Positions 1,452 through 38,291 of a stretch of 40,808 nucleotides of DNA are shown here, one piece after another (the stretch's first letter is position 1; each line of letters opens with the position of its first letter). The DNA is taken from IMG/VR virus record IMGVR_UViG_2778261545_000004. One strand, 5' to 3'. The notes beneath the pieces were generated by a model, which did not search any database, was not told the DNA's origin, and worked only from the letters and a program-made list of their open reading frames with translations. Both the position numbers and the translations under genes were made by a program. This stretch comes from a virus. Taxonomy: Duplodnaviria > Heunggongvirae > Uroviricota > Caudoviricetes.

Positions 1452-2579
1452 TCAAACCTTGATTTTTGCCCATTCCTTACCACGATCATCATGGTATTTA
1501 GCTGTCTGGTTAGGCGATTTATGTCCCAGAAGTTTTTGGGTGTCGACGCCCTGAGCTTCGTAAAGTCGCTCAGATAAAGATCTTTGTTCATGGAATGTGG
1601 CGGGCGAACCTTCACCCCAGTCAATGCCTGCTAAATCCCTCGCTTTACTGAAATTCATCGTCAATGTATTGGCTTTTACTTGCGCGCCACGTTCAGCCTG
1701 TGAAGTAGTACGAAAAAAATGTACAAGGTATGGGCTGACTGCATAGTCACGGCAGCGGGCTACTACATCGCGTAAACTCCAGTTAATTGCATTGAGGCGA
1801 AGGGAAAGCGGGATGGCGATTTTGCTCCCGGTTTTTTCTTGGATGACGTGAAGATGATCATCCCAAATATCGCTAAATTTCATACGTGAGATATCACCTA
1901 ACCGTTGGCCGGTAACCAGTGCTAACAGCATGGCATTCCCCATATAACGATGGCGGGCATCTGCGATATCAAAGATTTTTTGCCATTCTTCAAGACTTAA
2001 CCGTTGTCGGGTAATTTTTCTTCTGGGTTGTTTGGTTGCCAGTGCTGGATTATAGCCCGGAGGGACTTCCCCATAGTGTTGTGCCTCCTTGAATACATCA
2101 ATTAGAACGGAGCGGACTACTTGCGCCATCCTCGGTTGCCCGGCAGTGATATACTCGTCAAGTAATTGTGCTATATCCCTTACATCAACTGATGAAATTA
2201 ATTTCATTCCTGCTCGTTCCCTGAGCAAGGATACTGGTTTGGCTTTCTGTTTATAGGTGTTTAGCTTTATATCGCCACTTTCCAGTCTGTCATCCTGGAT
2301 TGCTTGATAGCGATCTAACCAGGTTGACGTTGTGATTGCTTTTCCTTTGCTGGTTGCGATCCTGTCACTGATAGCCAGAATCTGCCGGGTTCTTTGCTCA
2401 GCCAGGCGTGAATTTGCCTCAGTGGCAATAGCAATGGCTTCAGCTTCGTTTGTGCCTAAAGAATGAAACTTCCCGGTCACTGGATGTTTATATCGCCAAT
2501 AGACTTTATTTACTTTTCTACTATAAAGCGGATACAAGTTCGGGACTGAAACATTATTTTTACGTGGTCTGGCTGCCAT
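1452..2579 (-). CDS. int: Tyrosine-type phage integrase
   Basis: 375 aa; typical integrase N-terminal arm and C-terminal catalytic region; overlapped by xis at its 5' end. Confidence 0.9.
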   Translation of the reverse strand: MAARPRKNNVSVPNLYPLYSRKVNKVYWRYKHPVTGKFHSLGTNEAEAIAIATEANSRLAEQRTRQILAISDRIATSKGKAITTSTWLDRYQAIQDDRLESGDIKLNTYKQKAKPVSLLRERAGMKLISSVDVRDIAQLLDEYITAGQPRMAQVVRSVLIDVFKEAQHYGEVPPGYNPALATKQPRRKITRQRLSLEEWQKIFDIADARHRYMGNAMLLALVTGQRLGDISRMKFSDIWDDHLHVIQEKTGSKIAIPLSLRLNAINWSLRDVVARCRDYAVSPYLVHFFRTTSQAERGAQVKANTLTMNFSKARDLAGIDWGEGSPATFHEQRSLSERLYEAQGVDTQKLLGHKSPNQTAKYHDDRGKEWAKIKV

Positions 2580-6198: not shown

Positions 6199-6891
6199 TT
6201 AATTATGTCTCTTAAGGGTTTGCGACTGACTGATTAAGACCTTTCCAAAGACCATGAATCGGTGTTCGTTTTCGCTAGTAATTCCCCATTCACGGTAAAT
6301 CTGGTTATCAGAAATCACCAGCAGTTTGTCAGGAATCATTTGAAGTCTTTTAACGTATATTTTGTCATCAAAACCAAAGACATATATACCATCACCATCA
6401 AACTGATTGATGCTGACATCAACGAAGATGAGATCTCCTGGCTCAATGGTTGGACACATACTGTCCCCACGAACGTTGATAACTTTGATGTGATTGGCTG
6501 GTCGTCCGCCGAACATTGATACAGCATTATCAGTTCTGTATTCGATGGCATGAATCACATCAATGACATCACCGCCCTGGATAAGGCCATTTCCCGCACT
6601 GGCACTGATATCCAGCATTTCAATACGGAACACATCCTTCACCTGCGCAACATCCTCATTATTACTGTTTTTATATACAGTATTACTTTTGTGGGCAGAG
6701 GTAAAGAGATCAGCAATATCAACACCTAAGCTCTTGGCAATATTACTCAGTGTTTGTTCGGTAAATTGTTTTTGCTTACCCGTTTCTAAGCGCGAGATGT
6801 TCGCCGCATCTACTCCTATCGCTTCAGCGAGATCGGCGATTTTCATGTTCTTCGCTTGGCGAAGTTGTCTGACTCGGTTTCCTATGTTCAT
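6199..6891 (-). CDS. CI-like prophage repressor (HTH domain plus S24 LexA-like autopeptidase domain)
   Basis: 230 aa; N-terminal HTH, C-terminal peptidase region with the conserved Ser (GDSMCP) and Lys (VKRL); divergent from a Cro-like gene. Confidence 0.9.
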   Translation of the reverse strand: MNIGNRVRQLRQAKNMKIADLAEAIGVDAANISRLETGKQKQFTEQTLSNIAKSLGVDIADLFTSAHKSNTVYKNSNNEDVAQVKDVFRIEMLDISASAGNGLIQGGDVIDVIHAIEYRTDNAVSMFGGRPANHIKVINVRGDSMCPTIEPGDLIFVDVSINQFDGDGIYVFGFDDKIYVKRLQMIPDKLLVISDNQIYREWGITSENEHRFMVFGKVLISQSQTLKRHN

Positions 6892-12758: not shown

Positions 12759-12775
12759 TTTTGTGGAGAAATTTG

Positions 12776-13141
12776 ATGCGTGATATTCAGATCATCCTTG
12801 AACGTTGGGGGGCATGGGCAGCTAGTGATAGCTCAGGAGTGGACTATTCGCCTATAGCTGCTGGGTTTAAGGGACTTCTTCCCTATACCAGTAAGGCACG
12901 CCAAGCTTGTTCAGATAATGATGCGCTAATTATTGAAAGTTGCTTGGAGCAACTAAAAAAAAGAAAACCTTATGAGCATTCTCTACTGGTTGCGCATTAT
13001 TTGTACGGGTTTTCAAAGCGGAAGATTGCCAAAGTACAAGGAAAGGATGAGAAATTAATCCGTATAGAAATATTGTTAGCAGAGGGATTCATTGATGGTT
13101 GCCTTTCTACTCTCGATATTCATTTAGATATGGAGTTATAA
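12776..13141 (+). CDS. Late-gene antiterminator Q (QuuD-like)
   Basis: 121 aa from ATG 12776 (GGAG upstream); MRDIQIILERWGAWAA N-terminus typical of this Q family. Confidence 0.8.
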   Translation: MRDIQIILERWGAWAASDSSGVDYSPIAAGFKGLLPYTSKARQACSDNDALIIESCLEQLKKRKPYEHSLLVAHYLYGFSKRKIAKVQGKDEKLIRIEILLAEGFIDGCLSTLDIHLDMEL

Positions 13142-13150
13142 TAAAAATAA

Positions 13151-13197
13151 CCCCGTAAACTTTATGTTTACGGGGGAAGGTTATTTCTTTTTTTTAT
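13151..13197. terminator. Bidirectional hairpin terminator between Q and the convergent TIR-like gene
   Basis: CCCCGTAAAC-TTTAT-GTTTACGGGG with T-rich tracts on both sides. Confidence 0.6.
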
Positions 13198-13996
13198 TAC
13201 TTTCAGATAATCGTCGGTTTAATGTGTATTTTATTTGGTTCCTAATCATTTTTTCAGGAATGTCATATTTGTCTAAGAATGATATTATTTCATCCTCGTC
13301 AAGCAATCCATTCTTTATAATTTCATCTATCTGTTTTTGTAGATACCAAACATCCTTCTGTTCTACAGGAGTTAAATTCATATGGCTATTTATGGAGTTG
13401 ATAGTAGCATCACGTTCAAGAACTCTAATCCTTTGATTTAATGAACGAGTGTTTTGTAATATTTCAGATAAAAGATCTTGTTCAGTACGTGGTTTTACTT
13501 CTTCAGTTGGAGGGTATTGATCTAAAGCTCGTTTAAAATTGTTTTCAAATTGCTCCCAGTATGTATTAAAAACTTGCTTTAGAATACGGTCATCTAAAGA
13601 TTTATCGACAAGACAATTGTTTATTGTCCTTACTAATTCCCAAACACTCTCTTTATTTGGCGTTGTGTGATTGAATTGAGCAAGTGGATCTTTTAAATCT
13701 TCTGGTTTTAAGTCAATCAAGAATGTACAAACTTTATTTGTTGAAAGTCCTTTTGCTAGTGCTCCTGTTTCAAACAAAATCCATGGTTTATTTTTATTTT
13801 CTTGTGTCAAACATACAATTCCGACAGATACATCTTTTAATTTATCATTAATTTCAGAGAACCATATAGCGCCACGATCAATATCTCTGGTTGAAATCCA
13901 TGGCTGCGAAGCTTGGATAACACACTTCAGCCAGTCGCTAATAAGTTCTGCAACAGCTTGACTTCTTTGCCCAGACCAACTTATGAACACTTTCAT
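13181..13996 (-). CDS. TIR-like domain protein with C-terminal helical domain (moron)
   Basis: 271 aa from MKVFISWSG (TGGAG 6 nt upstream); motifs DIDRG, VGIVCLT, PWILFETG match TIR consensus by eye; AT-rich; reverse orientation between Q and lysis genes. Confidence 0.55.
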   Translation of the reverse strand: MKVFISWSGQRSQAVAELISDWLKCVIQASQPWISTRDIDRGAIWFSEINDKLKDVSVGIVCLTQENKNKPWILFETGALAKGLSTNKVCTFLIDLKPEDLKDPLAQFNHTTPNKESVWELVRTINNCLVDKSLDDRILKQVFNTYWEQFENNFKRALDQYPPTEEVKPRTEQDLLSEILQNTRSLNQRIRVLERDATINSINSHMNLTPVEQKDVWYLQKQIDEIIKNGLLDEDEIISFLDKYDIPEKMIRNQIKYTLNRRLSESNKKKK

Positions 13997-14120
13997 TATG
14001 TACTCCATGTAATCACTCAAAAGGAACTGAAATTTACATTAAAAATTAAATAAAATCACTCACGCGGTCCGCAGAAACCATTGTAATCTGTTATGAGTGG
14101 TTACTTCGCCACACAACTTA

Positions 14121-26325: not shown

Positions 26326-26474
26326 CGGCTGAATACCTCACTGATCGCTTCTTTGACTGCGCCAGTTACTGGCGCATTAATCCCTTCGAATTGCTGAATA
26401 TGCCGATCAGTGAAATTCCCTTGCTGGTCAGTCAGGCAAACAGGATAGAGCAGGAGAAACGCACACATGGCTGA
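26307..26474 (+). CDS. Frameshift extension of the tail assembly chaperone (long form C-terminus)
   Basis: -1 frame after the slippery site reads FFPPGLTAEYLTDRFF... for 55 codons and overlaps the tape measure start. Confidence 0.55.
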   Translation, partial: FFPPGLTAEYLTDRFFDCASYWRINPFELLNMPISEIPLLVSQANRIEQEKRTHG

Positions 26475-28299
26475 ATTTGAGCTTAAGGCGTTGATCACCG
26501 GTGTCGACAGGCTTTCTCCCGCGCTGTCGAAAATGCAAAAGAAAATCCGGGGATTTAAACGCCAGGCGGAAGAAGCGTCACAGGGTGGGCTGGCGCTTGG
26601 TGGCGGACTGGCAGCGGGTCTGACGCTTTCCCTGAAATCTTATGCCGATCAGGAAAACGCCGCCACCGGGCTGAAAGTCGCCATGATGGATGCGAACGGC
26701 GAGGTTGGAAAGAGCTTTCAGGACATCAATAAACTGGCTATTGGCCTGGGTAACCAGCTACCCGGTACAACGGCTGATTTCCAAAACATGATGCAGATGC
26801 TGGTACGTCAGGGGATCCCGGCAGAAAACATTCTGGGTGGTGTGGGTAAAGCGACAGCTTATCTTGCGGTACAACTGAAAAAAACACCGGAAGCGGCTGC
26901 TGAGTTTGCTGCAAAGATGCAGGATGCTACCGGAACGGCGTCAGAAGACATGATGGGGCTGTTCGACACTATCCAGAAGGCGTTTTATCTGGGCGTTGAC
27001 GATACCAACATGTTGTCCTTCTTCACTAAAACCAGTTCTGTTCTGAAGATGGTGAACAAGGACGGTCTTCAGGCTGCACAGAGCCTTGCCCCCATCAGCG
27101 TCATGATGGATCAGATGGGGATGAACGGGGAGTCGGCAGGTAACGCCCTGCGAAAAGTTATCCAGTCCGGATTAAGCGTTAAGAAAATCAGGGACGTCAA
27201 TAAAATCATGGCCCGCCAGAAACTCGGGGTACAGCTCGATTTTACTGACGGCAAAGGAAGTTTTGGCGGTCTTGATAACATGTTCAGGCAACTGGCAAAG
27301 CTGCGAAAACTGACCGACGTTAAGCGAACAGGTGTACTTAAGGCAATATTTGGTGATGATGCCGAAACCCTTCAGGTGGTCAATGCACTAATCGATAAAG
27401 GAAAGGATGGCTACGATCAGATCCAGCAGAAGATGAATAAACAGGCCAGCCTGAATAAACGTGTTCAGGCTCAGCTTGGTACGCTGTCCAACCTGTGGGA
27501 GGCAATGACAGGGACCGCAACTAACGGCCTTGCGGCTATTGGCGGCGCATTTTCTGGTGACGCTAAAAATATCACGCAATGGCTGGGGGAGTTGGGGGAG
27601 AAATTCACGAAGTTTGCGGATGAAAATCCCCGGATTATTCGCGGCGTCGTCGGGCTTGCTGCCGGTCTTGCGATTCTGAAACTGGGATTGATGGGCGTTG
27701 GCGGTGCCATCAGTATTGTCAGCAGGATCATGTCGATGACGCCGATTGGCATGATTGCGACGGCGATAGCCCTGGCTGCGGGATTAATTATCACTAACTG
27801 GGATGTTGTCGGACCTTATTTTAAGAAACTATGGGAAACCATTGGTCCTTATTTTGAGGCTGGCTGGGAACTCCTTAAGAAAGTTTTTGCCTGGTCGCCG
27901 CTGGGGATGGTGATCAATAACTGGGGACCGGTTGTTAAGTGGTTTCAGGATATGTGGGATAAGCTGAAGCCGATTATTGAATGGTTTACCGACAGTTCCG
28001 GTGACACGGTCGATGCCATTAACTCGGCGCAGTGGGGCGCGGGTGCTTATGATGCTTATGGGACGGGAATACCGGCACGGGGATACACTCCTTATCCGGC
28101 GGTGGATCCGGCTCAGGTAAACAACGCCTCCGATGCCACAGGCTCGAATCCCTTCATGATTAATAAAGCTACCGCGCCAAAAGTTGATGGTGAGATCAAG
28201 GTATCATTTATAAATATGCCACCAGATATGCGGGTTACGGAAACACGCTCCAGTGGCATTGATATAAATCACGATGTCGGCTATACCCGATTTTGGTAG
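26467..28299 (+). CDS. Tail tape measure protein
   Basis: 610 aa, helical Ala/Gly-rich, central hydrophobic segments. Confidence 0.9.
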   Translation: MAEFELKALITGVDRLSPALSKMQKKIRGFKRQAEEASQGGLALGGGLAAGLTLSLKSYADQENAATGLKVAMMDANGEVGKSFQDINKLAIGLGNQLPGTTADFQNMMQMLVRQGIPAENILGGVGKATAYLAVQLKKTPEAAAEFAAKMQDATGTASEDMMGLFDTIQKAFYLGVDDTNMLSFFTKTSSVLKMVNKDGLQAAQSLAPISVMMDQMGMNGESAGNALRKVIQSGLSVKKIRDVNKIMARQKLGVQLDFTDGKGSFGGLDNMFRQLAKLRKLTDVKRTGVLKAIFGDDAETLQVVNALIDKGKDGYDQIQQKMNKQASLNKRVQAQLGTLSNLWEAMTGTATNGLAAIGGAFSGDAKNITQWLGELGEKFTKFADENPRIIRGVVGLAAGLAILKLGLMGVGGAISIVSRIMSMTPIGMIATAIALAAGLIITNWDVVGPYFKKLWETIGPYFEAGWELLKKVFAWSPLGMVINNWGPVVKWFQDMWDKLKPIIEWFTDSSGDTVDAINSAQWGAGAYDAYGTGIPARGYTPYPAVDPAQVNNASDATGSNPFMINKATAPKVDGEIKVSFINMPPDMRVTETRSSGIDINHDVGYTRFW

Positions 28300-28327
28300 C
28301 CAGGATTCCCCTCACAGGTATTGCTGG

Positions 28328-28355
28328 TTGTAAGTCATAAATAGAGTGATAGAAT
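28328..28355 (+). promoter_or_regulatory. Candidate sigma70 promoter of the tail-embedded moron (-35 TTGTAA, 16 bp, -10 TAGAAT)
   Basis: Hexamers read directly, about 35 nt upstream of ATG 28391. Confidence 0.4.
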
Positions 28356-28390
28356 TAATGCACATTTAGAAAAATGTTAATAGGCGAAAA

Positions 28391-28921
28391 ATGAAAGGCT
28401 ATATCACAGCAAGTGTAATTCTTGGAGCAGCGGCTGTTTTTTCATCTCTCATAATCTCTGGCAACATCTCCTTTAAAGATGAACATATTATTCAGTTATC
28501 TGGAGGAGCCATAAAACTTGGTGATGTTTATAAAGAAAATAAATTGATAAGTGCAAAGATTATTTTTCCAGATAATCAGGGTGAACAGATTCTTGTTGTC
28601 GACGGCAATCCTGAAAACTTTAAGGAGGATTTTCAGGAGAAATTAAATAAAGTAATAAAAACTTTAAATGCGTCAAAGAAAAAAGATGAAGAGAAAGTTA
28701 GCCTGGATAATTTAAGTGTTATTGAAGAGTCTAAACTAGAGCTCGTTTCTGCGGTGCGTTACTCTGCTCAGTATGTTCCTATGTTTACTCTGACGCTGGA
28801 CAAAAAAGAAATTACCATGCCTAAAAATACGGTAATATTTCCATTTGCCAGCGATGAAACAGCTAAGTATTTAAATGAACAACAGCAAAAGTATAAAGAT
28901 TCGTTGTTTCTGACTCGCTAA
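28391..28921 (+). CDS. Hypothetical membrane-anchored or exported protein (moron inside the tail operon)
   Basis: 176 aa, N-terminal hydrophobic signal/anchor, Lys/Glu-rich, strongly AT-rich; own promoter and terminator. Confidence 0.6.
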   Translation: MKGYITASVILGAAAVFSSLIISGNISFKDEHIIQLSGGAIKLGDVYKENKLISAKIIFPDNQGEQILVVDGNPENFKEDFQEKLNKVIKTLNASKKKDEEKVSLDNLSVIEESKLELVSAVRYSAQYVPMFTLTLDKKEITMPKNTVIFPFASDETAKYLNEQQQKYKDSLFLTR

Positions 28922-28941
28922 TTAATAAAATTCATTACAAG

Positions 28942-28972
28942 GCCACCTTCTAATAGGTGGCTTTTTTATTTT
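28942..28972 (+). terminator. Rho-independent terminator after the moron
   Basis: GCCACC-TTCTAATA-GGTGGC followed by TTTTTTATTTT. Confidence 0.65.
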
Positions 28973-28982
28973 CGGAGTGTAT

Positions 28983-30311
28983 ATGACGTGGAAAGACAGG
29001 CTTCAGGATGCGTCATTTCGAGGTGTGCCGTTTAAGGTTGAAGAAGAAAGTGCGGGAACCGGCCGTCGTGTGGAAACACACGAATATCCGAACCGCGACA
29101 AACCCTATACCGAAGATCTGGGAAAAGTCACTTTCCGCCCGTCCATCACGGCTTATGTGGTGGGAGATGACTGCTTTGACCAGCGCGATCGCCTGATTGA
29201 CGCGCTGAATAAACCCGGTCCCGGCACGCTTGTCCACCCGACATACGGTGAGTTGAAAGTCTGTGTTGACGGGGAAGTTCGGGTCAGCACATCGAAGAGT
29301 GAAGGGCGTATTGTCCGCTTTGACCTGAAGTTTGTCGAAGCGGGAGATCTCTCTTACCCCACATCAGGCGTGGCGACGGCGCAGACGCTGATGTCATCCT
29401 GTTCTGCACTGGATGACTGCATCAGTGACAGCTTCAGCGGTTTCAGTATCGATGGCGTGGCGGATTTTGTGCAGAACGACGTTATCGGTAATGCCAGCAC
29501 AATGCTTGGGTATGTTTCTGATGCGATGAAAGTGGTGGATTCTGCCGTATCGGATGCCGCCAGGCTGTTGCAGGGTGATATCTCGGTACTTCTGCCGCCG
29601 CCATCGTCAGGCAAAAATTTCGTTGAGCAGGTGCAGAAAATGTGGCGTACCGGGAAACGCCTTTATGGTAACGCCAGCGACCTGGTCACCATGATCAAAA
29701 CGCTTTCCGGTGTCAGCCTCGGCAGCGATCTGCAACCGCGCGGCGTCTGGAAAACGGACAGTAAAACCACCGCCACGGCGACGCAGCAGCGTAACGTGGT
29801 TGCCAGCACCCTTCGTACGACCGCAATCAGCGAAGCGGCGTATGCCGTCATCCGATTGCCTGCGCCAACAACTTCCGCGGTGATGCAGAATGCCACAGTG
29901 GGGCAGGCAACAACACCCGCGCAGAGCACTGGCTGGCCTTCCGTCACGCATCCGGTACTGAACAATGCACCGGCGGTGAAAAACACGGTTGACCTGCCGA
30001 CGTGGGAAGAACTGACTGACATTCGCGACACACTGAATACGGCAATTGATAAGGAGTTGTCCCGTACAACCAGCGATGCGCTGTTTCTGGCGCTGCGCCG
30101 GGTGAAAGCAGATCTGAATGCGGATATCAACACGCGCCTTGAACAGTCTGCACGGATCATTCAGCGCACACCGGATGAGGTTTTACCCGCGCTGGTGCTG
30201 GCGGCGACCTGGTTTGATAACGCGGCGCGTGACGCGGACATTATCCGGCGTAATGCCATTACGCATCCCGGCTTTGTGCCGGTGATCCCTCTGAAGGTGC
30301 CAGTGCAATGA
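28983..30311 (+). CDS. DNA circulation protein (Mu N-like)
   Basis: 443 aa from ATG 28983 (GGAG 5 nt upstream); position after tape measure. Confidence 0.75.
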   Translation: MTWKDRLQDASFRGVPFKVEEESAGTGRRVETHEYPNRDKPYTEDLGKVTFRPSITAYVVGDDCFDQRDRLIDALNKPGPGTLVHPTYGELKVCVDGEVRVSTSKSEGRIVRFDLKFVEAGDLSYPTSGVATAQTLMSSCSALDDCISDSFSGFSIDGVADFVQNDVIGNASTMLGYVSDAMKVVDSAVSDAARLLQGDISVLLPPPSSGKNFVEQVQKMWRTGKRLYGNASDLVTMIKTLSGVSLGSDLQPRGVWKTDSKTTATATQQRNVVASTLRTTAISEAAYAVIRLPAPTTSAVMQNATVGQATTPAQSTGWPSVTHPVLNNAPAVKNTVDLPTWEELTDIRDTLNTAIDKELSRTTSDALFLALRRVKADLNADINTRLEQSARIIQRTPDEVLPALVLAATWFDNAARDADIIRRNAITHPGFVPVIPLKVPVQ

Positions 30312-33983: not shown

Positions 33984-34811
33984 ATGCATCGTATAGACAC
34001 GAAAACCGCGCAGAAGGATAAGTTCGGCGCGGGTAAGAACGGTTTTACCCGTGGTAACCCCCAGACTGGCACACCTGCCACCGATCTGGATGATGACTAC
34101 TTTGATATGTTGCAGGAAGAACTCTGCAGCGTGGTGGAGGCATCCGGTGCCAGCCTGGAGAAGGGGCGAAACGACCAGTTGCTTACCGCGCTTCGTGCTC
34201 TGCTGTTAAGCCGCAAGAATCCGTTTGGTGATATCAAATCGGATGGCACGGTGAAAACGGCTCTCGAAAACCTTGGTTTGGGAGAAGGCTCAGCATTACC
34301 CGTTGGTGTGCCTGTTCCGTGGCCTTCAGCCACTCCGCCAACAGGCTGGCTGAAATGCAATGGTGCGGCTTTTTCTGCTGAAGAATACCCGGAACTGACA
34401 AAGGCTTACCCGACCAATAAATTGCCTGATTTACGCGGTGAATTTATTCGTGGCTGGGATGATGGACGTGGAGTGGATGCGGGGCGAGCCTTGCTAAGTC
34501 TTCAGAATGACTCTTTTGAAGCTCACAGGCATGAGTCCTTTTTTTACGCGGGTATTTCACGCAATGAAACACCATTAAAAAATCTTCCAAGTTCAGACGA
34601 GATGCTGACTTTAAGTTCCACAACTAATGCCTTGTCCCCGGACAGTATTGATGCCACCAATTCGTTAATTGGTAATGATGATTACAACTGTCTGATTGAA
34701 GGAAATAAAAATAACAAACGAACGGCAACGGGGTTGAGTACCAGTATTGTCGGTGCAGCAGAGACACGCCCACGTAATATTTCATTTAATTACATTGTGA
34801 GGGCTGCATGA
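33984..34811 (+). CDS. Tail fibre protein (constant N-terminus fused to currently expressed variable C-terminus)
   Basis: 275 aa; conserved N-terminus [21 protein letters not shown]; recombination site lies at codon ~93. Confidence 0.8.
34261..34286. promoter_or_regulatory. DNA invertase crossover site (hix/gix-like), left
   Basis: CTCTCGAAAACC-TT-GGTTTGGGAGAA; 20 of 26 positions match the right site in inverted orientation. Confidence 0.5.
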
Positions 34812-35413
34812 TGTATAACGCCATCTTAAATAATAAATTTATTGCCACAAAGGCAGGAGAGATTACCGTTTATAACTATGACAGTGAGACACGGGAGTAT
34901 ATTTCTGCATCAACTGAATATCTTGCTGTGGGTGTCGGTATCCCTGCATATTCCTGTTTAGATGCTCCTGACACACATAAGGTTGGTTATGCAATCTGCC
35001 GTTCGGCAGATTTAAACTCATGGGAATATGTGCCAGACCATCGCGGTGAAGTTGTCTATAACACCGAAACGGGAGAATCAAAAGAAATCACAGCTCCGGG
35101 TGATTACCCTGAAAATACAACCACTATCGTCCCGTTAACGCCATACGATAAATGGGATGGTGAGAAATGGGTGACAGATACTGAGGCACAGCATAGTGCC
35201 GCAGTAGACGCGGCAGAAGCACAGCGCCAGTCGCTGATTGATGCTGCAATGGCTTCCATCAGTCTGATTCAACTGAAATTACAGGCCGGGCGGAAGCTGA
35301 CGCAGGCAGAAACAACCCGATTTAACGCCGTGCTGGATTACATTGACGCGGTGACGGTAACAGATACCAGCACCACGCCGGATGTCATCTGGCCTGAACT
35401 GCCGGAGGCGTAG
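34808..35413 (+). CDS. Tail fibre assembly chaperone (Tfa), currently expressed orientation
   Basis: 201 aa, conserved C-terminus ([12 protein letters not shown]); ATGA overlap with fibre stop. Confidence 0.8.
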
Positions 35414-35813
35414 GCCATTCAATATCGGGTGCTGTTGAAGTATCAACACGCATCAGCAGCACACGGTATTTCTTCCATTCGGTGAGAGTTGAAGTTTCTT
35501 CATCAGTTGCGATATCAGCATCAACAGCATCCTGACGCCAGGATATTTCACTGTCAGCTTTTTCCCGTAATTGGGATTTTTTAACTTCAGCAATAGCTAT
35601 TAATTCCTTTTTGGTCGGCTGAGGAATATCTATCAGTGCTGGTTTTCCATTCAGTGTTCCAATCTGTTTTCCTGGTGGAATATCCGTAAATAACTTTTTA
35701 TGTTCTTCCTCACTGACTATTACACCATCATCAGGCCACAGACCTGATGCCTCAAATTTTTCTTTCTCCGATATGGGGAAAAAGCCATTTGCTTTAGCGC
35801 TCCATACGTACAT
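35385..35813 (-). CDS. Alternative tail fibre assembly chaperone (inverted cassette)
   Basis: 142 aa, conserved C-terminus ([10 protein letters not shown]); convergent 29-nt overlap with tfa. Confidence 0.75.
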
Positions 35814-35814
35814 A

Positions 35815-36109
35815 TCAATACCCCACCGCTATAATGTCCACATTAAATCCCCCGGGACCTGCCTGCCAGATGCTGGCCCCTGTTAATGATTTTGTTTGAT
35901 GAACAACCGCCACATTTGCTGGCGATTGTGTTTCAGTTGTTACAGTACCGATATCATTCCAGTTAATTGAGATGGAATAGTTCGTTGTTGTAAACGACCG
36001 GGGGAAAGTTATGTGTCTTACATTGGTGCCGACAGGAAATCCAAGATAAACACGCTGAATTATCATTCCTCCAGGTAACATAACCCAGTTAGCACCTTCT
36101 CCAAAACCA
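35815..36109 (-). other. Promoterless alternative tail-fibre C-terminal cassette (expressed only after inversion)
   Basis: Reverse-strand coding segment beginning at the right crossover site; inversion would fuse it in frame to the fibre N-terminus. Confidence 0.6.
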
Positions 36110-36122
36110 ACGTTTATGAAAA
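36097..36122. promoter_or_regulatory. DNA invertase crossover site (hix/gix-like), right
   Basis: TTCTCCAAAACC-AA-CGTTTATGAAAA resembles the Hin hixL sequence as recalled (TTCTTGAAAACCAAGGTTTTTGATAA). Confidence 0.55.
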
Positions 36123-36176
36123 TGCAGAAATAACGAGCAAATGGCATCATTCCTGCTTTTGTCAGAGGGATCCACT

Positions 36177-36401: not shown

Positions 36402-38291
36402 TTAATCGTATTTTGGCCATACTTTCAATGCAATTTCCCCCAACTTTTTACCTCGCTCCAGTATTTCACTCTCATCCCATTTATCCTTAAGTATAAGTGG
36501 TATGTTCAGTCGTAGATTGGTGTGGACGATGAGAGCATCACGTTTTTTCAGAAATACAGCATTCTGAACGGAACGGTTTACGCTAAGGTTAAGCAAAGTT
36601 AGATTTCCCAACGTAGCTATCGCTTGTTGCCGTTTCCTTACCAGTAGCTGTTCAGGGGTAAGATCGGTTCCAGACAGAACAATTTGGTTCATTACCGTAG
36701 CATCTGAATTTGTCACCATATGACCATTTTCGAGAGGCCAACAGGAATACCAACTTTGAGGCATAAGATGATCGATATCGAGATTAGAAAGATTTGGAAC
36801 ATCAGGCTTTTCTGTCTTTACTTGGCGACAAAGTTCTCTTTCAAGTTCCGTTAACATTGAGCGCATTTTCGGTGCGTCGAGCCTGCCAGGATAAAGTGGA
36901 GCATTGATGCAAGCGTTGAGAAATTCTGAGTCCCCAGGCCAACGTGAGGCTTCGCCATTTAAGCTATTGAGGATATTACGTAACTCAATACTGGAAATTT
37001 CCGTTTTAGACAAGTGTCGCAATACATTCATAAATACATTGTTGTAATTCTTTGGCGTCAGGCCACATACGGATCTTCGTACTACGTAGGAGACAAGATC
37101 ATTATACATGGCTGCTTTCTCATCATCGGCGATGTTAGCTATCGAAATGAACAAAGCAAGCGGATAGAGTGTCGTCACATCATAGGCTGCGATGCGATGT
37201 CCAAAGTGTGAGATGGGGGTTGTGCCAAAACCACCAACCAATTCTTTATATTGTGATGCATATTGTTTGAGGCGCTTTACTTGCAGATCTGCTCGTTGTG
37301 AAGGCAAGTCCTTACTTACATAATCACGATACTCATTGTAAAGGCGAGACAGATCAATTTCACGCTGCCTTTCTGATTGCAATGTCGCATGTACAAGCCA
37401 CTCCATGCGTGGTTTATTAATACGTCCACGGCGTTGCTTTTCCGACCAGTATTTATCTTCAAAGATCTTCCACTCATTTTCATATAATTCAATAGTATTA
37501 ATATTTTCATGCTCAGCGCACATAAAGATATAGTTGCGAATAAGATCCGTTGCATGAAGTTCCGCTCCTCGCCCATTTAATGTTTCAAAAATTATTTGGG
37601 CATCATCTTCAGCTTCGAGAAATATGCTTACCAGTTTCAGATCCGTCAAGACAGCCTCAATTAGTGCTACAGCATTTTCTTGTGGTGAGCGGTTTTCTAT
37701 TTTAATCCATTTTATAAAGGCTTCAGTAAAAAACCATAATGCCTCTAGTGACGGCGGGTGGTTGAAATGTTTACGTAACGTACCATGTTGCGTGAAGCTA
37801 TCAGAAAATACATTACGGAGATCGTCAATATTATCAACATTAAGACTTTGAATAAAATGAGTTTGATCTCGAAAAGTTGGCCACAGTTTGAAGCATTCTA
37901 CCTTTTTATTTCTCATCGTTGCTTCGTTTGTATTTTTCAAGCAAGTCAATACTAACCCTTCCAGTTCAGAAAGGCCTGTAGCACGCAATGATAATCGAAT
38001 GGATGCCAGAATATATTGAAGAGTGGTTAAACGTTGCTGGCCGTCAATAATATGTATGGTATCTACACCTAACAAGCTGTTTTTGAGTTGAGGTTCCAGC
38101 ACCACCGCGCCGAGGAAATGAGGGGTTGGTTTTGTTCCCGAAAGTCGGCTCTGTGCTTTTTCGAAGATATCCTCCAGCAAAGCTGACCATTGGTTTCGTT
38201 GCGTCCATACGTAGGCACGTTGATAGAATGGAACACGATATTGTCGTTGATTTTGGAAAATTTGCTGGATGGTTAGCGTTTCGGATTTCAT
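36402..38291 (-). CDS. GmrSD-family type IV (modification-dependent) restriction endonuclease, fused DUF262-DUF1524
   Basis: 629 aa; N-terminal VPFYQRAYVW and IIDGQQRLTTL (DUF262), C-terminal DIDHLMPQSW ... GNLTLLNLSVNRS (His-Me finger); AT-rich. Confidence 0.8.
   Translation of the reverse strand: MKSETLTIQQIFQNQRQYRVPFYQRAYVWTQRNQWSALLEDIFEKAQSRLSGTKPTPHFLGAVVLEPQLKNSLLGVDTIHIIDGQQRLTTLQYILASIRLSLRATGLSELEGLVLTCLKNTNEATMRNKKVECFKLWPTFRDQTHFIQSLNVDNIDDLRNVFSDSFTQHGTLRKHFNHPPSLEALWFFTEAFIKWIKIENRSPQENAVALIEAVLTDLKLVSIFLEAEDDAQIIFETLNGRGAELHATDLIRNYIFMCAEHENINTIELYENEWKIFEDKYWSEKQRRGRINKPRMEWLVHATLQSERQREIDLSRLYNEYRDYVSKDLPSQRADLQVKRLKQYASQYKELVGGFGTTPISHFGHRIAAYDVTTLYPLALFISIANIADDEKAAMYNDLVSYVVRRSVCGLTPKNYNNVFMNVLRHLSKTEISSIELRNILNSLNGEASRWPGDSEFLNACINAPLYPGRLDAPKMRSMLTELERELCRQVKTEKPDVPNLSNLDIDHLMPQSWYSCWPLENGHMVTNSDATVMNQIVLSGTDLTPEQLLVRKRQQAIATLGNLTLLNLSVNRSVQNAVFLKKRDALIVHTNLRLNIPLILKDKWDESEILERGKKLGEIALKVWPKYD

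What the first reader, a model, noticed from the sequence alone, without database searches (positions are those of the whole stretch)
28300..28972. Self-contained moron (promoter, gene, terminator) inside the tail operon
Between the tape measure and DNA-circulation genes sits a strongly AT-rich 176 aa ORF with an N-terminal signal/anchor sequence, a candidate sigma70 promoter and a clean intrinsic terminator. Mu-type tail modules normally have no gene here. Membrane or periplasmic morons at such positions are often superinfection-exclusion or receptor-masking factors.
Basis: partly seen in the sequence, partly recalled or inferred. Interest (0 to 1): 0.5.

Follow-up and report, generated by a model that had tools for sequence, protein, structure and literature searches.

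The report
Envelope-protein moron after tape-measure gene
An AT-rich accessory gene sits between two tail genes of an SfV-like E. coli prophage and encodes an uncharacterised membrane-anchored protein predicted to face the periplasm; it is one of at least four interchangeable envelope-protein cassettes at this spot, and its most likely (untested) role is blocking entry of other phages.

Summary
A 531-nt ORF (28391-28921, 176 aa, 34.5% GC against 51-57% in its neighbours) fills the gap between the tape-measure gene (26467-28299) and the Mu-N-like DNA-circulation/baseplate-hub gene (true start ATG 28983). It has a sigma-70-like promoter with an extended -10 (28328-28355) and a strong hairpin plus T-run (28939-28972).

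It is a moron, not a tail component. SfV, SfI and SfII have about 98% identical flanking proteins and only a roughly 60-nt gap. Of 5426 complete E. coli genomes, 1093 have the flanks. 179 of them carry this gene, and 85, 72 and 55 carry three unrelated cassettes: a signal-peptide protein, a TM-anchored OB-fold protein on the opposite strand, and a lipoprotein. All four cargo proteins are envelope-targeted.

Orthologues (42-60% identity, dN/dS 0.04-0.17) occupy the same slot in Leclercia and Edwardsiella prophages. One survives alone in a decayed Lelliottia prophage.

The protein (PHROG 5485, function unknown; no Pfam, NCBIfam or PADLOC match) has an N-terminal TM helix and a confidently modelled alpha/beta domain with no relative in the PDB.

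Function is inferred, not shown: most likely superinfection exclusion at the periplasm or inner membrane, by analogy with HK97 gp15 and P22 SieA. It is a new member of a known kind, of moderate interest.

The parts
26467..28299 (+). Tail tape-measure protein gene (left border of the slot). Its last codons (…GYTRFW*) mark the left junction of the cassette.
   Evidence: PF10145 at 1.3e-26 and phrog_28/17727. 97.9% aa identity to SfV/SfII TMP.
28300..28982 (+). The variable slot: 683 nt here against about 60 nt in SfII/SfV. 34.3% GC.
   Evidence: Alternative contents in other E. coli genomes.
28328..28355 (+). Sigma-70-like promoter: TTGTAA, 16 nt, extended -10 TGaTAGAAT.
   Evidence: 9/12 match; the count does not exceed shuffles. 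The position aligns with -35/-10-like hexamers in the Leclercia and Lelliottia orthologous loci.
28382..28387 (+). Weak Shine-Dalgarno sequence (AGGCGA), 6 nt before the ATG.
   Evidence: Read directly from the sequence.
28391..28921 (+). Moron ORF, 176 aa. PHROG 5485 member of unknown function.
28400..28459 (+). Codons 4-23: N-terminal hydrophobic helix (signal-anchor, or possibly a cleavable signal peptide), rich in small residues (GAAAVFSS).
   Evidence: Kyte-Doolittle mean 2.09. AF2 helix 2-23. Conserved across the family.
28484..28903 (+). Codons 32-171: predicted periplasmic alpha/beta domain (four strands, helix, beta-hairpin, helix).
   Evidence: AF2 mean pLDDT 91 with a 51-sequence alignment. 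No PDB relative. One BFVD match, to a phage lipoprotein.
28939..28972 (+). Intrinsic terminator: 10-bp stem, 6-nt loop, T-run.
   Evidence: dG -15.6 kcal/mol, z -5.6. Hairpins in an equivalent position, with different stem sequences, occur in the SKA5, lipoprotein and Leclercia cassettes and in the empty SfII slot.
28983..30311 (+). Mu gpN-like DNA-circulation/baseplate-hub gene (right border of the slot). SD GGAG at 28974-28977.
   Evidence: PF07157 at 4e-34 and phrog_184. Start codon taken from the RefSeq annotation of the 99% identical H10407 locus and from the alignment.

Best explanation
The segment is a horizontally acquired moron cassette (promoter, gene, terminator). It sits in a recombination-permissive gap between the tape-measure gene and the gpN gene of an SfV-like, lambdoid-regulated prophage with a Mu-type tail.

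Shown here:
- The gene is dispensable for the virion.
- It is one of at least four non-homologous cassettes that replace one another at this site.
- It is under purifying selection.

Predicted from sequence and model:
- It encodes a protein with one N-terminal membrane helix and a compact alpha/beta domain of about 150 residues with no relative in the PDB.

Inferred:
- The N-terminal lysine and the hydrophobic helix give an N-in/C-out topology, so the domain faces the periplasm while tethered to the inner membrane.
- The gene is transcribed from its own promoter in the lysogen. Its terminator keeps that transcription out of the baseplate genes.
- In lytic growth, Q-modified RNA polymerase reads through the terminator, so the protein is also made late.
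- Most likely function: superinfection exclusion at the entry step. The tethered periplasmic domain would intercept a component that incoming phages deliver into the periplasm or inner membrane (tape-measure protein, tail tip or ejection proteins), or a host inner-membrane factor they need. DNA would then not reach the cytoplasm even though adsorption is normal.

Confidence by step: moron status about 0.95, envelope location about 0.85, exclusion function about 0.4.
For: Not a tail component:
- SfV, SfI and SfII lack the gene although TMP and gpN are about 98% identical.
- Only 179 of the 1093 E. coli genomes with these flanks carry it.

Foreign origin:
- 34.5% GC against 51-57% in the flanks. 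The orthologues are also 35-39% GC inside 50-58% flanks.

Real, selected gene:
- dN/dS is 0.04-0.17.
- 75 of 80 IMG/VR copies are intact and differ only by conservative substitutions.
- The family has 77 representatives at 50% clustering, nearly all full-length ones between about 165 and 200 aa and sharing the N-terminal hydrophobic segment and two conserved motifs.

Autonomous unit:
- In Lelliottia amnigena only about 150 nt of the TMP 3' end, the gene and its terminator survive next to icd. All tail genes are gone and the ORF is intact.
- The alternative OB-fold cassette lies on the opposite strand, so it cannot be read from the late operon.
- The terminator hairpin is strong.

Envelope location:
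- Hydrophobic helix at residues 5-23.
- The only fold match is a phage protein annotated as a lipoprotein.
- The other three cassettes at the slot encode a Sec-signal protein, a TM-anchored PF12869 OB-fold protein and a lipobox lipoprotein.

Conflict-gene signature:
- The protein is 42-60% identical between genera. The neighbouring baseplate protein gpP and the tail tube protein are 79-88% identical, and the sheath about 75%.

Defence context:
- The same prophage carries a TIR-domain protein and a GmrSD enzyme at the other classic moron positions.
- Distant homologues sit in small integrative islands next to an Mrr-like restriction enzyme.

Precedent:
- HK97 gp15 is a single-TM moron protein encoded next to the tape-measure gene. 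It blocks DNA entry, and sensitivity to it depends on the phage's tail region (PMC3594210).
Against: - There is no functional, transcript or localisation data for any member. Every database name is 'hypothetical protein', and literature searches on the identifiers found nothing.
- There is no sequence or fold similarity to any characterised exclusion or defence protein. PADLOC, Pfam and NCBIfam give 0 hits, and the PDB searches give none.
- The promoter match is no better than chance in AT-rich DNA.
- From general knowledge, a 680-nt stretch of 34% GC DNA in E. coli is a likely H-NS target, so expression in the lysogen may be low or conditional.
- The envelope bias of the cassettes fits any surface-related lysogenic-conversion function equally well.
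- Whether the hydrophobic segment is an anchor or is cleaved (possibly after IIS23) is unresolved.
Confidence: 0.4

Rival explanations
1. A lysogenic-conversion factor unrelated to phages. The periplasmic or inner-membrane protein would improve host fitness, for example envelope stress tolerance, serum or bile resistance, or colonisation, as lambda Bor and Lom do.
For: - Predicted envelope location.
- Carried by E. coli from many hosts and pathotypes, including ETEC H10407.
- Retained on its own in a decayed prophage in Lelliottia.
- Strong purifying selection.
- Morons with such roles are well documented (PMC3594210).
Against: - No similarity to any known virulence or stress protein.
- It is the fastest-diverging gene of the tail neighbourhood apart from mosaic tape-measure genes.
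- It is swapped for unrelated envelope proteins at the same slot. That pattern fits an arms race better than a housekeeping benefit.
- The family also occurs in marine Pseudomonas-like bacteria on islands with restriction genes, so it is not tied to an animal host.
Confidence: 0.25
2. An orphan immunity protein against a periplasm-acting toxin, such as a colicin M- or pesticin-type bacteriocin or a T6SS or CDI cell-wall effector, carried as prophage cargo.
For: - The architecture, a small periplasmic domain tethered by one N-terminal helix, is that of colicin M immunity protein Cmi and of many T6SS amidase immunity proteins (general knowledge).
- Mobile-element carriage and rapid divergence are typical of immunity genes.
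Against: - No toxin gene is adjacent in any of the loci inspected.
- No fold match to Cmi or to any solved immunity protein.
- Immunity genes usually occur in arrays or next to effectors, which was not seen here.
Confidence: 0.1
3. A late-expressed accessory gene that serves the phage's own lytic cycle. It might protect lysing cells or progeny from wasteful re-adsorption and injection, or tune lysis or the envelope, rather than being a prophage-expressed gene.
For: - It lies on the same strand inside the late operon, so Q-antiterminated transcription must traverse it. Q is at 12761-13141.
- The promoter is not statistically supported.
- The only fold relative is a lipoprotein of a virulent Pseudomonas myovirus of the family Vandenendeviridae.
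Against: - The stand-alone copy in Lelliottia has no late operon.
- The sister OB-fold cassette is antisense to the late operon.
- Distant homologues lie in non-phage integrative islands.
- The gene is absent from 50,697 GenBank phage genomes by tblastn.
- This rival overlaps with the exclusion hypothesis in mechanism and differs only in timing.
Confidence: 0.1
4. A structural or assembly component of the tail, for example a chaperone or baseplate accessory.
For: - Its position is conserved between TMP and gpN in prophages of three genera.
Against: - Absent from SfV, SfI and SfII, which have near-identical tail genes.
- Absent from about 84% of E. coli prophages that share these flanks.
- Replaced there by unrelated proteins, one of them on the opposite strand.
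- The N-terminal membrane helix is incompatible with cytoplasmic tail assembly.
- Foreign base composition.
Confidence: 0.02

Closest known systems
HK97 gp15 moron (Cumby et al. 2012; reviewed in PMC3594210)
   Same: - An AT-biased, self-contained cassette inserted in a tail operon next to the tape-measure gene and absent from close relatives.
- A small protein with a single N-terminal membrane helix.
- gp15 blocks DNA entry in a way that depends on the superinfecting phage's tail region (hybrid phages point to the tail tube or tape-measure protein). That is the mechanism proposed here.
   Different: - No sequence relationship. gp15 is YebO-like, while this protein has no Pfam hit.
- gp15 lies upstream of the tape-measure gene, between the chaperone and TMP genes. 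This gene lies downstream.
- gp15 is far smaller than this protein, which carries a folded alpha/beta ectodomain of about 150 residues.
- HK97 has a siphovirus tail. This prophage has a contractile Mu-type tail.
- The function here is untested.
P22 SieA, and the inner-membrane or periplasmic exclusion proteins T4 Imm and Sp
   Same: - Phage-encoded and located at the inner membrane or in the periplasm.
- They act after adsorption to stop DNA or ejection-protein passage (PMC10883804).
- They are fast-diverging families.
   Different: - SieA is a polytopic inner-membrane protein encoded outside the tail operon.
- No homology.
- T4 Imm and Sp belong to a virulent phage.
Cor (phi80, N15, HK022) and T5 Llp receptor-masking lipoproteins
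   Same: - Small envelope proteins encoded in or next to tail genes that exclude superinfecting phages.
- One of the alternative cassettes in this very slot is a 225-aa lipoprotein.
   Different: - The window protein has no cysteine and therefore no lipobox.
- It is predicted to be tethered to the inner membrane, so masking of an outer-membrane receptor is unlikely.
Lactococcal Sie2009 and TP-J34 Ltp (general knowledge)
   Same: - Prophage-encoded, membrane-tethered proteins of about 140-170 aa whose extracytoplasmic domain blocks DNA injection. Ltp targets the tape-measure protein.
   Different: - Their hosts are Gram-positive.
- They are encoded near the lysogeny module, not in the tail operon.
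- No homology was detected.
PHROG 5485 / PHROG 34391
   Same: - The window protein matches phrog_5485 end to end (E 4e-108), and all 51 aligned family members match it.
   Different: - The PHROG carries no functional annotation, so membership names the family but says nothing about function.

Membership tests
Phage moron (sense of Juhala/Hendrix) | Inserted between two genes that are adjacent in related phages | tested here: met
   SfV, SfI and SfII have a gap of about 46-60 nt between TMP and gpN, and their flanking proteins are about 98% identical to the window's.
Phage moron (sense of Juhala/Hendrix) | Base composition distinct from the surrounding genes | tested here: met
   34.5% GC (GC3 30%) against 51-57% (GC3 56-63%).
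Phage moron (sense of Juhala/Hendrix) | Own promoter | tested here: inconclusive
   A 9/12 sigma-70 match with an extended -10 at 28328-28355, but no excess over shuffles. The position is conserved in orthologous loci. Indirect support comes from the stand-alone copy and the antisense sister cassette.
Phage moron (sense of Juhala/Hendrix) | Own terminator | tested here: met
   Hairpin at 28939-28964 plus T-run, dG -15.6, z -5.6. Caveat: the empty slot also has a hairpin plus T-run.
Phage moron (sense of Juhala/Hendrix) | Expressed from the repressed prophage | not testable with these tools
   No transcript data were found. Literature searches on the identifiers returned nothing.
HK97 gp15 / YebO-like exclusion proteins | Sequence similarity to gp15/YebO | tested here: not met
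   No Pfam family at E <= 0.1 for the window protein, and no consistent hit among 51 family members.
HK97 gp15 / YebO-like exclusion proteins | Single N-terminal membrane-spanning helix | tested here: met
   Residues 5-23, Kyte-Doolittle mean 2.09. AF2 helix 2-23.
HK97 gp15 / YebO-like exclusion proteins | Blocks phage DNA entry when expressed from a prophage | not testable with these tools
   Needs plating, adsorption and DNA-entry assays.
Known anti-phage defence systems (PADLOC-DB 2.0) | Match to a defence-protein profile | tested here: not met
   0 families at E <= 1.
Cor/Llp-type receptor-masking lipoproteins | Lipobox with an acylated cysteine | tested here: not met
   The protein contains no cysteine.
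Core Mu-type tail/baseplate proteins | Conserved in all relatives that share the tail module | tested here: not met
   Absent from SfV, SfI and SfII and from about 84% of E. coli prophages with the same flanks. Replaced there by unrelated genes.
Spanin (Rz-type i-spanin) | N-terminal TM helix plus a coiled-coil periplasmic domain, encoded in the lysis cassette with an Rz1 partner | tested here: not met
   The TM helix is present, but the domain is a two-layer alpha/beta fold and the gene lies in the tail operon. In the 99% identical H10407 prophage the lysis cassette already has DUF2570/Rz and LysC/Rz1 genes.
PHROG 5485 | Full-length match to the profile | tested here: met
   E 4.3e-108, residues 1-176 against profile 1-176. 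51 of 51 aligned relatives match.

The most novel reading that the evidence does not exclude
The gap after the tape-measure gene of SfV-like prophages may be a dedicated hotspot. Non-homologous envelope proteins would be swapped there as alternative entry-blocking (superinfection-exclusion) modules. They are the 176-aa TM-anchored protein, a secreted 164-170-aa protein, a TM-anchored OB-fold protein and a 225-aa lipoprotein. On this reading the PHROG-5485 family is a new exclusion family whose alpha/beta ectodomain has no solved structural relative. It would recognise the incoming tail's tape-measure or tail-tip proteins in the periplasm. It would also be spread beyond phages, onto small integrative islands in other Gammaproteobacteria.
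Probability: 0.3. Interest if true: 0.6.

Novelty: new member of a known kind. Interest (0 to 1): 0.42.

Why it matters
About 3% of complete E. coli genomes carry this gene, and about 7% carry one of the four cassettes at this slot. The carriers include reference pathogens such as ETEC H10407 and UMNK88, yet none of the four proteins has a known function.

If they are entry blockers, three things follow:
- They would help explain strain-specific resistance to temperate and therapeutic phages.
- They would give a compact, well-delimited natural swap site for discovering envelope-level defences.
- They would provide a protein with no solved structural relative for studying how contractile-tail phages cross the periplasm.

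If they are not, the result is still useful. It settles that this ORF is accessory cargo and not part of the Mu-type tail.

Tried and rejected
- **Sequence families.** Pfam, NCBIfam and PADLOC gave no hit. PDB sequence profiles gave only noise, E >= 0.3.
- **First AlphaFold run.** With 14 close sequences the model was poor (pLDDT 60). It was replaced by the 51-sequence model.
- **tblastn against 50,697 GenBank phages.** The window protein and a distant homologue found nothing real.
- **Rfam.** Only sub-threshold matches of leader-peptide attenuator models to the terminator hairpin.
- **Invertase idea.** I considered that the resolvase next to the distant homologues controls an invertible promoter. 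No convincing inverted repeats bracket the upstream region, so I dropped it.
- **Paralogue idea.** I considered that the 180-aa gene preceding the Pseudomonas-type homologue is a paralogue. hhalign probability was 0.7%, so I rejected it.
- **'Plasmid' records.** I considered that the 35-38 kb 'plasmid' records carrying the gene are circular phage genomes, which would prove activity. The one inspected is a partial prophage with IS26, so it was not used as evidence.
- **The search for related loci.** The wide alignment failed for lack of a conserved stretch. The close alignment worked.
- **Literature.** Searches for the protein and locus identifiers returned nothing.
Full report
**1. What is in the window**

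The gap between the tape-measure gene (26467-28299; PF10145, phrog_28) and the Mu-N-like DNA-circulation/baseplate-hub gene (PF07157, phrog_184) holds one ORF: 28391-28921 on the + strand, 176 aa.
- **Composition.** The ORF is 34.5% GC (GC3 30%) and the whole gap is 34.3% GC. The tape-measure, gpN and sheath genes are 51%, 56% and 57%.
- **Promoter-like site.** TTGTAA, 16 nt, TG-n-TAGAAT lies at 28328-28355. A 10-bp hairpin with a T-run lies at 28939-28972.
- **Terminator strength.** The hairpin folds at -15.6 kcal/mol, z = -5.6 against dinucleotide shuffles.
- **Promoter significance.** The number of promoter-like matches (2) is not above chance for this AT-rich stretch (3.0 +/- 2.0 in shuffles). 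On its own the match is weak evidence.
- **Downstream gene start.** The downstream gene starts at ATG 28983, behind GGAG at 28974-28977, not at the GTG at 28977 that the mechanical ORF list gives.
- **RNA families.** Rfam finds nothing here apart from sub-threshold matches of attenuator models to the hairpin.

**2. Whose genome this is**

The window is an SfV/SfI/SfII-type prophage of E. coli. It has lambdoid regulation and an HK97-type head, followed by a Mu-type contractile tail module. The regulatory genes are:
- an integrase at 1452-2579 (-);
- a CI-like repressor at 6199-6891 (-);
- Q at 12761-13141.

Because the late operon is driven by a Q antiterminator, an intrinsic terminator in the middle of the tail genes does not stop late transcription (established lambdoid biology). 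It would stop transcripts that start at an ordinary promoter in the lysogen.

**3. Moron or tail gene?**

- In SfV, SfI and SfII, all sequenced phage isolates, the two flanking genes are separated by about 46-60 nt. Their TMP and gpN are 97.9-98.2% identical in protein sequence to those of the window.
- Among 5426 complete E. coli genomes, 1093 contain the flanks and only 179 contain this cassette. In 180 of the 181 matching records it is at least 99% identical.

So the gene is dispensable for the virion and has spread recently.

**4. The slot is a swap site**

Other E. coli prophages with the same flanks carry unrelated sequences in the same gap. I counted each one separately.

| Cassette | Strand | Genomes (of 5426) |
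|---|---|---|
| This 176-aa protein | + | 179 |
| 170-aa protein with a Sec-type signal peptide (MRIFVFFISALLSFNLAA/EE), also in the isolated phage SKA5 | + | 85 |
| 148-aa protein with an N-terminal TM helix and a PF12869 OB-fold | opposite | 72 |
| 225-aa lipoprotein (…LLGGC) | + | 55 |

- Roughly 36% of these prophages therefore carry cargo here.
- All four cargo proteins are envelope-targeted.
- The cassettes share only the last codons of TMP and the start of gpN. The plus-strand cassettes each end in a hairpin with a different stem sequence, followed by the same T-run and SD.
- The empty site in SfII also has a hairpin plus T-run. A terminator is therefore a feature of the slot and not proof of autonomy for this cassette alone.

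**5. Relatives of the gene**

- **Close homologues.** They are few. The E. coli cluster has 524 member sequences, and the exact window protein is seen on at least 1000 contigs. Proteins 52-59% identical come from Leclercia, Lelliottia and metagenomes.
- **Same slot in other genera.** In Leclercia adecarboxylata, L. pneumoniae and two further loci (one metagenomic, one IMG/VR viral contig), the homologue lies between TMP and gpN. So does the 42% identical protein of Edwardsiella anguillarum.
- **Selection.** Pairwise dN/dS is 0.04-0.17 where synonymous sites are not saturated. 75 of 80 IMG/VR copies are intact and differ only by conservative substitutions such as V16I.
- **Rate of divergence.** The protein is 42-60% identical across these prophages. 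gpP and the tail tube are 79-88% identical, the sheath about 75% and gpN 68-73%. It is the fastest-evolving gene of the neighbourhood apart from mosaic tape-measure genes.
- **A stand-alone copy.** In Lelliottia amnigena the gene sits next to icd. All that remains is about 150 nt of the TMP 3' end, the upstream region, the intact ORF and the hairpin. Every tail gene is gone. This is the best available evidence that the gene works as a free-standing unit and is worth keeping without the phage.
- **Promoter alignment.** The -35 and -10 hexamers of the window align with TTGCAA/TTGTCA and xxxAAT hexamers in these loci.

**6. The wider family**

- A profile search of 1.84 billion representatives found 77 proteins at E < 0.001. 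Nearly all full-length ones are between about 165 and 200 aa. They share an N-terminal hydrophobic helix, a motif N-I-x-T-T-x-G-x-V-x-L-G-x-V-Y-x-E just after it, and a second motif Y-x-S-E-x-x-P-x-F-x-L-x-L-D.
- All 51 aligned members match phrog_5485 (function unknown). None matches Pfam consistently.
- Two distant members (24% identity, Pseudomonas-like marine genomes) lie not in tail operons but in small integrative islands. Their neighbours include a serine recombinase, a resolvase, an Mrr-like restriction enzyme, or a tyrosine integrase with a DUF5906 primase.
- The family is thus mobile-element cargo in general.

**7. The protein**

- **Sequence features.** It has no cysteine or tryptophan. 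The ectodomain pI is 5.6. A hydrophobic stretch spans residues 5-23, preceded by Lys2.
- **Model.** With the 51-sequence alignment AlphaFold2 gives mean pLDDT 91 and pTM 0.76. The model has a helix at 2-23, a four-stranded sheet (32-72), a helix (74-93), a long beta-hairpin (114-143) and a C-terminal helix (149-171).
- **Anchor or signal peptide.** The hydrophobic segment is as conserved as the rest of the protein within the close family and is rich in small residues. I therefore favour a retained signal-anchor over a cleaved signal peptide. Cleavage after IIS23 cannot be excluded.

**8. How it most likely works**

- **Shown.** It is accessory, foreign, selected and interchangeable with other envelope proteins.
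- **Predicted from sequence and model.** It has a single membrane helix and a compact alpha/beta domain. That this domain faces the periplasm is inferred from the topology argument, not measured.
- **Inferred.** It is made in the lysogen from its own promoter, and inevitably also late from the Q-dependent transcript. It interferes with phage entry after adsorption.
- **Closest precedents.** HK97 gp15 is a single-TM moron protein encoded beside the tape-measure gene. It blocks DNA entry in a way that depends on the phage's tail region (PMC3594210). [quoted passage not shown] SNIPE is a membrane defence that associates with tape-measure proteins during injection (PMC13190303).
- **Supporting context.** The same prophage carries a TIR-domain protein (13181-14020, -) and a GmrSD enzyme (36402-38291, -) at the other two classic moron positions.
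- **Against.** Nothing about function, transcription or localisation has been measured for any member. There is no homology to any known exclusion or defence protein. AT-rich foreign DNA is often silenced by H-NS in E. coli (general knowledge).
- **Probabilities.** I put the exclusion function at about 0.4. The other roles are: a different lysogenic-conversion role about 0.25; immunity to a periplasm-acting toxin about 0.1; a purely late, phage-serving role about 0.1; a tail component about 0.02.

**9. Comparison with known systems and novelty**

As a genetic element it meets the definition of a moron on insertion, composition and terminator. The promoter test is inconclusive, and expression cannot be tested here. 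It is not a member of the gp15/YebO family, and it does not match any PADLOC family or the Cor/Llp lipoproteins (no lipobox), or fit the spanins; the comparison with SieA is by analogy only, with no homology found by Pfam or PADLOC. It is a member of PHROG 5485, which has no annotation.

I file it as a new member of a known kind. The less ordinary part is the slot itself: at least four unrelated envelope proteins alternate directly after the tape-measure gene across about 390 E. coli genomes. That makes a concrete, testable set of candidate entry-level exclusion modules. Interest is moderate (0.42).

Noticed in passing
window 13181-14020 (-): A 279-aa protein with a TIR_2 domain (PF13676, E 4e-7) is encoded on the opposite strand between the Q antiterminator gene (12761-13141) and the lysis genes. 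This is a classic moron position, and the protein is a likely defence gene. In the H10407 relative the same position holds a KAP-family NTPase instead.
   Followed up: partly
window 36402-38291 (-): A 629-aa GmrSD-type (type IV) restriction endonuclease (PF03235 plus PF07510) lies downstream of the tail-fibre genes. It is a second defence-type cargo gene in this prophage.
   Followed up: partly
window 28977-28985: The gpN-like gene most likely starts at ATG 28983 (SD GGAG at 28974-28977), as annotated in the 99% identical H10407 locus. It does not start at the GTG at 28977 given by the ORF list.
   Followed up: yes
L002 (SfII) 2016-2054; window 28939-28972: The 'empty' TMP-gpN junction of SfII already has a hairpin plus T-run, annotated as a rho-independent terminator, just before the gpN SD. 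A terminator inside the late tail operon is therefore a conserved feature of this module whether or not cargo is present. Its role in the empty state is unexplained.
   Followed up: partly
L004 8013-9808 (also L005, L006, L009): Leclercia-type prophages carry two further genes without Pfam hits (503-507 aa and 94 aa) between gpN and gpP. E. coli and L. pneumoniae relatives have none there. This looks like a second cargo slot in the same tail module.
   Followed up: no
L008 5830-6565 (Lelliottia amnigena, next to icd): A prophage remnant consisting only of the last ~150 nt of the tape-measure gene, the intact moron homologue and its hairpin sits downstream of icd, a well-known prophage attachment site.
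   Followed up: partly
L014 2173-7534; L018 5935-14462: Distant homologues (24% identity) lie in small integrative islands. The neighbours are a large serine recombinase, a resolvase and an Mrr-like restriction enzyme in one case, and a tyrosine integrase plus DUF5906 primase in the other. A 180-aa unknown gene precedes the homologue in L014 and is not a paralogue.
   Followed up: partly
window 33984-36150: The tail-fibre region has a forward fibre gene plus assembly gene (33984-35413). It also has an inverted pair on the opposite strand, a Caudo_TAP gene (35385-35813) and a Gp53-like C-terminal fragment (35815-36150). This is the layout of a Pin/Gin-invertible host-range segment. In H10407 a pinE invertase follows, whereas in the window the next gene is GmrSD.
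   Followed up: no
L102 (CP088862.1, 35.4-kb 'plasmid'): Several 19-64 kb records labelled as plasmids carry the cassette. The one inspected is a partial copy of this prophage interrupted by IS26, not a complete phage genome.
   Followed up: partly
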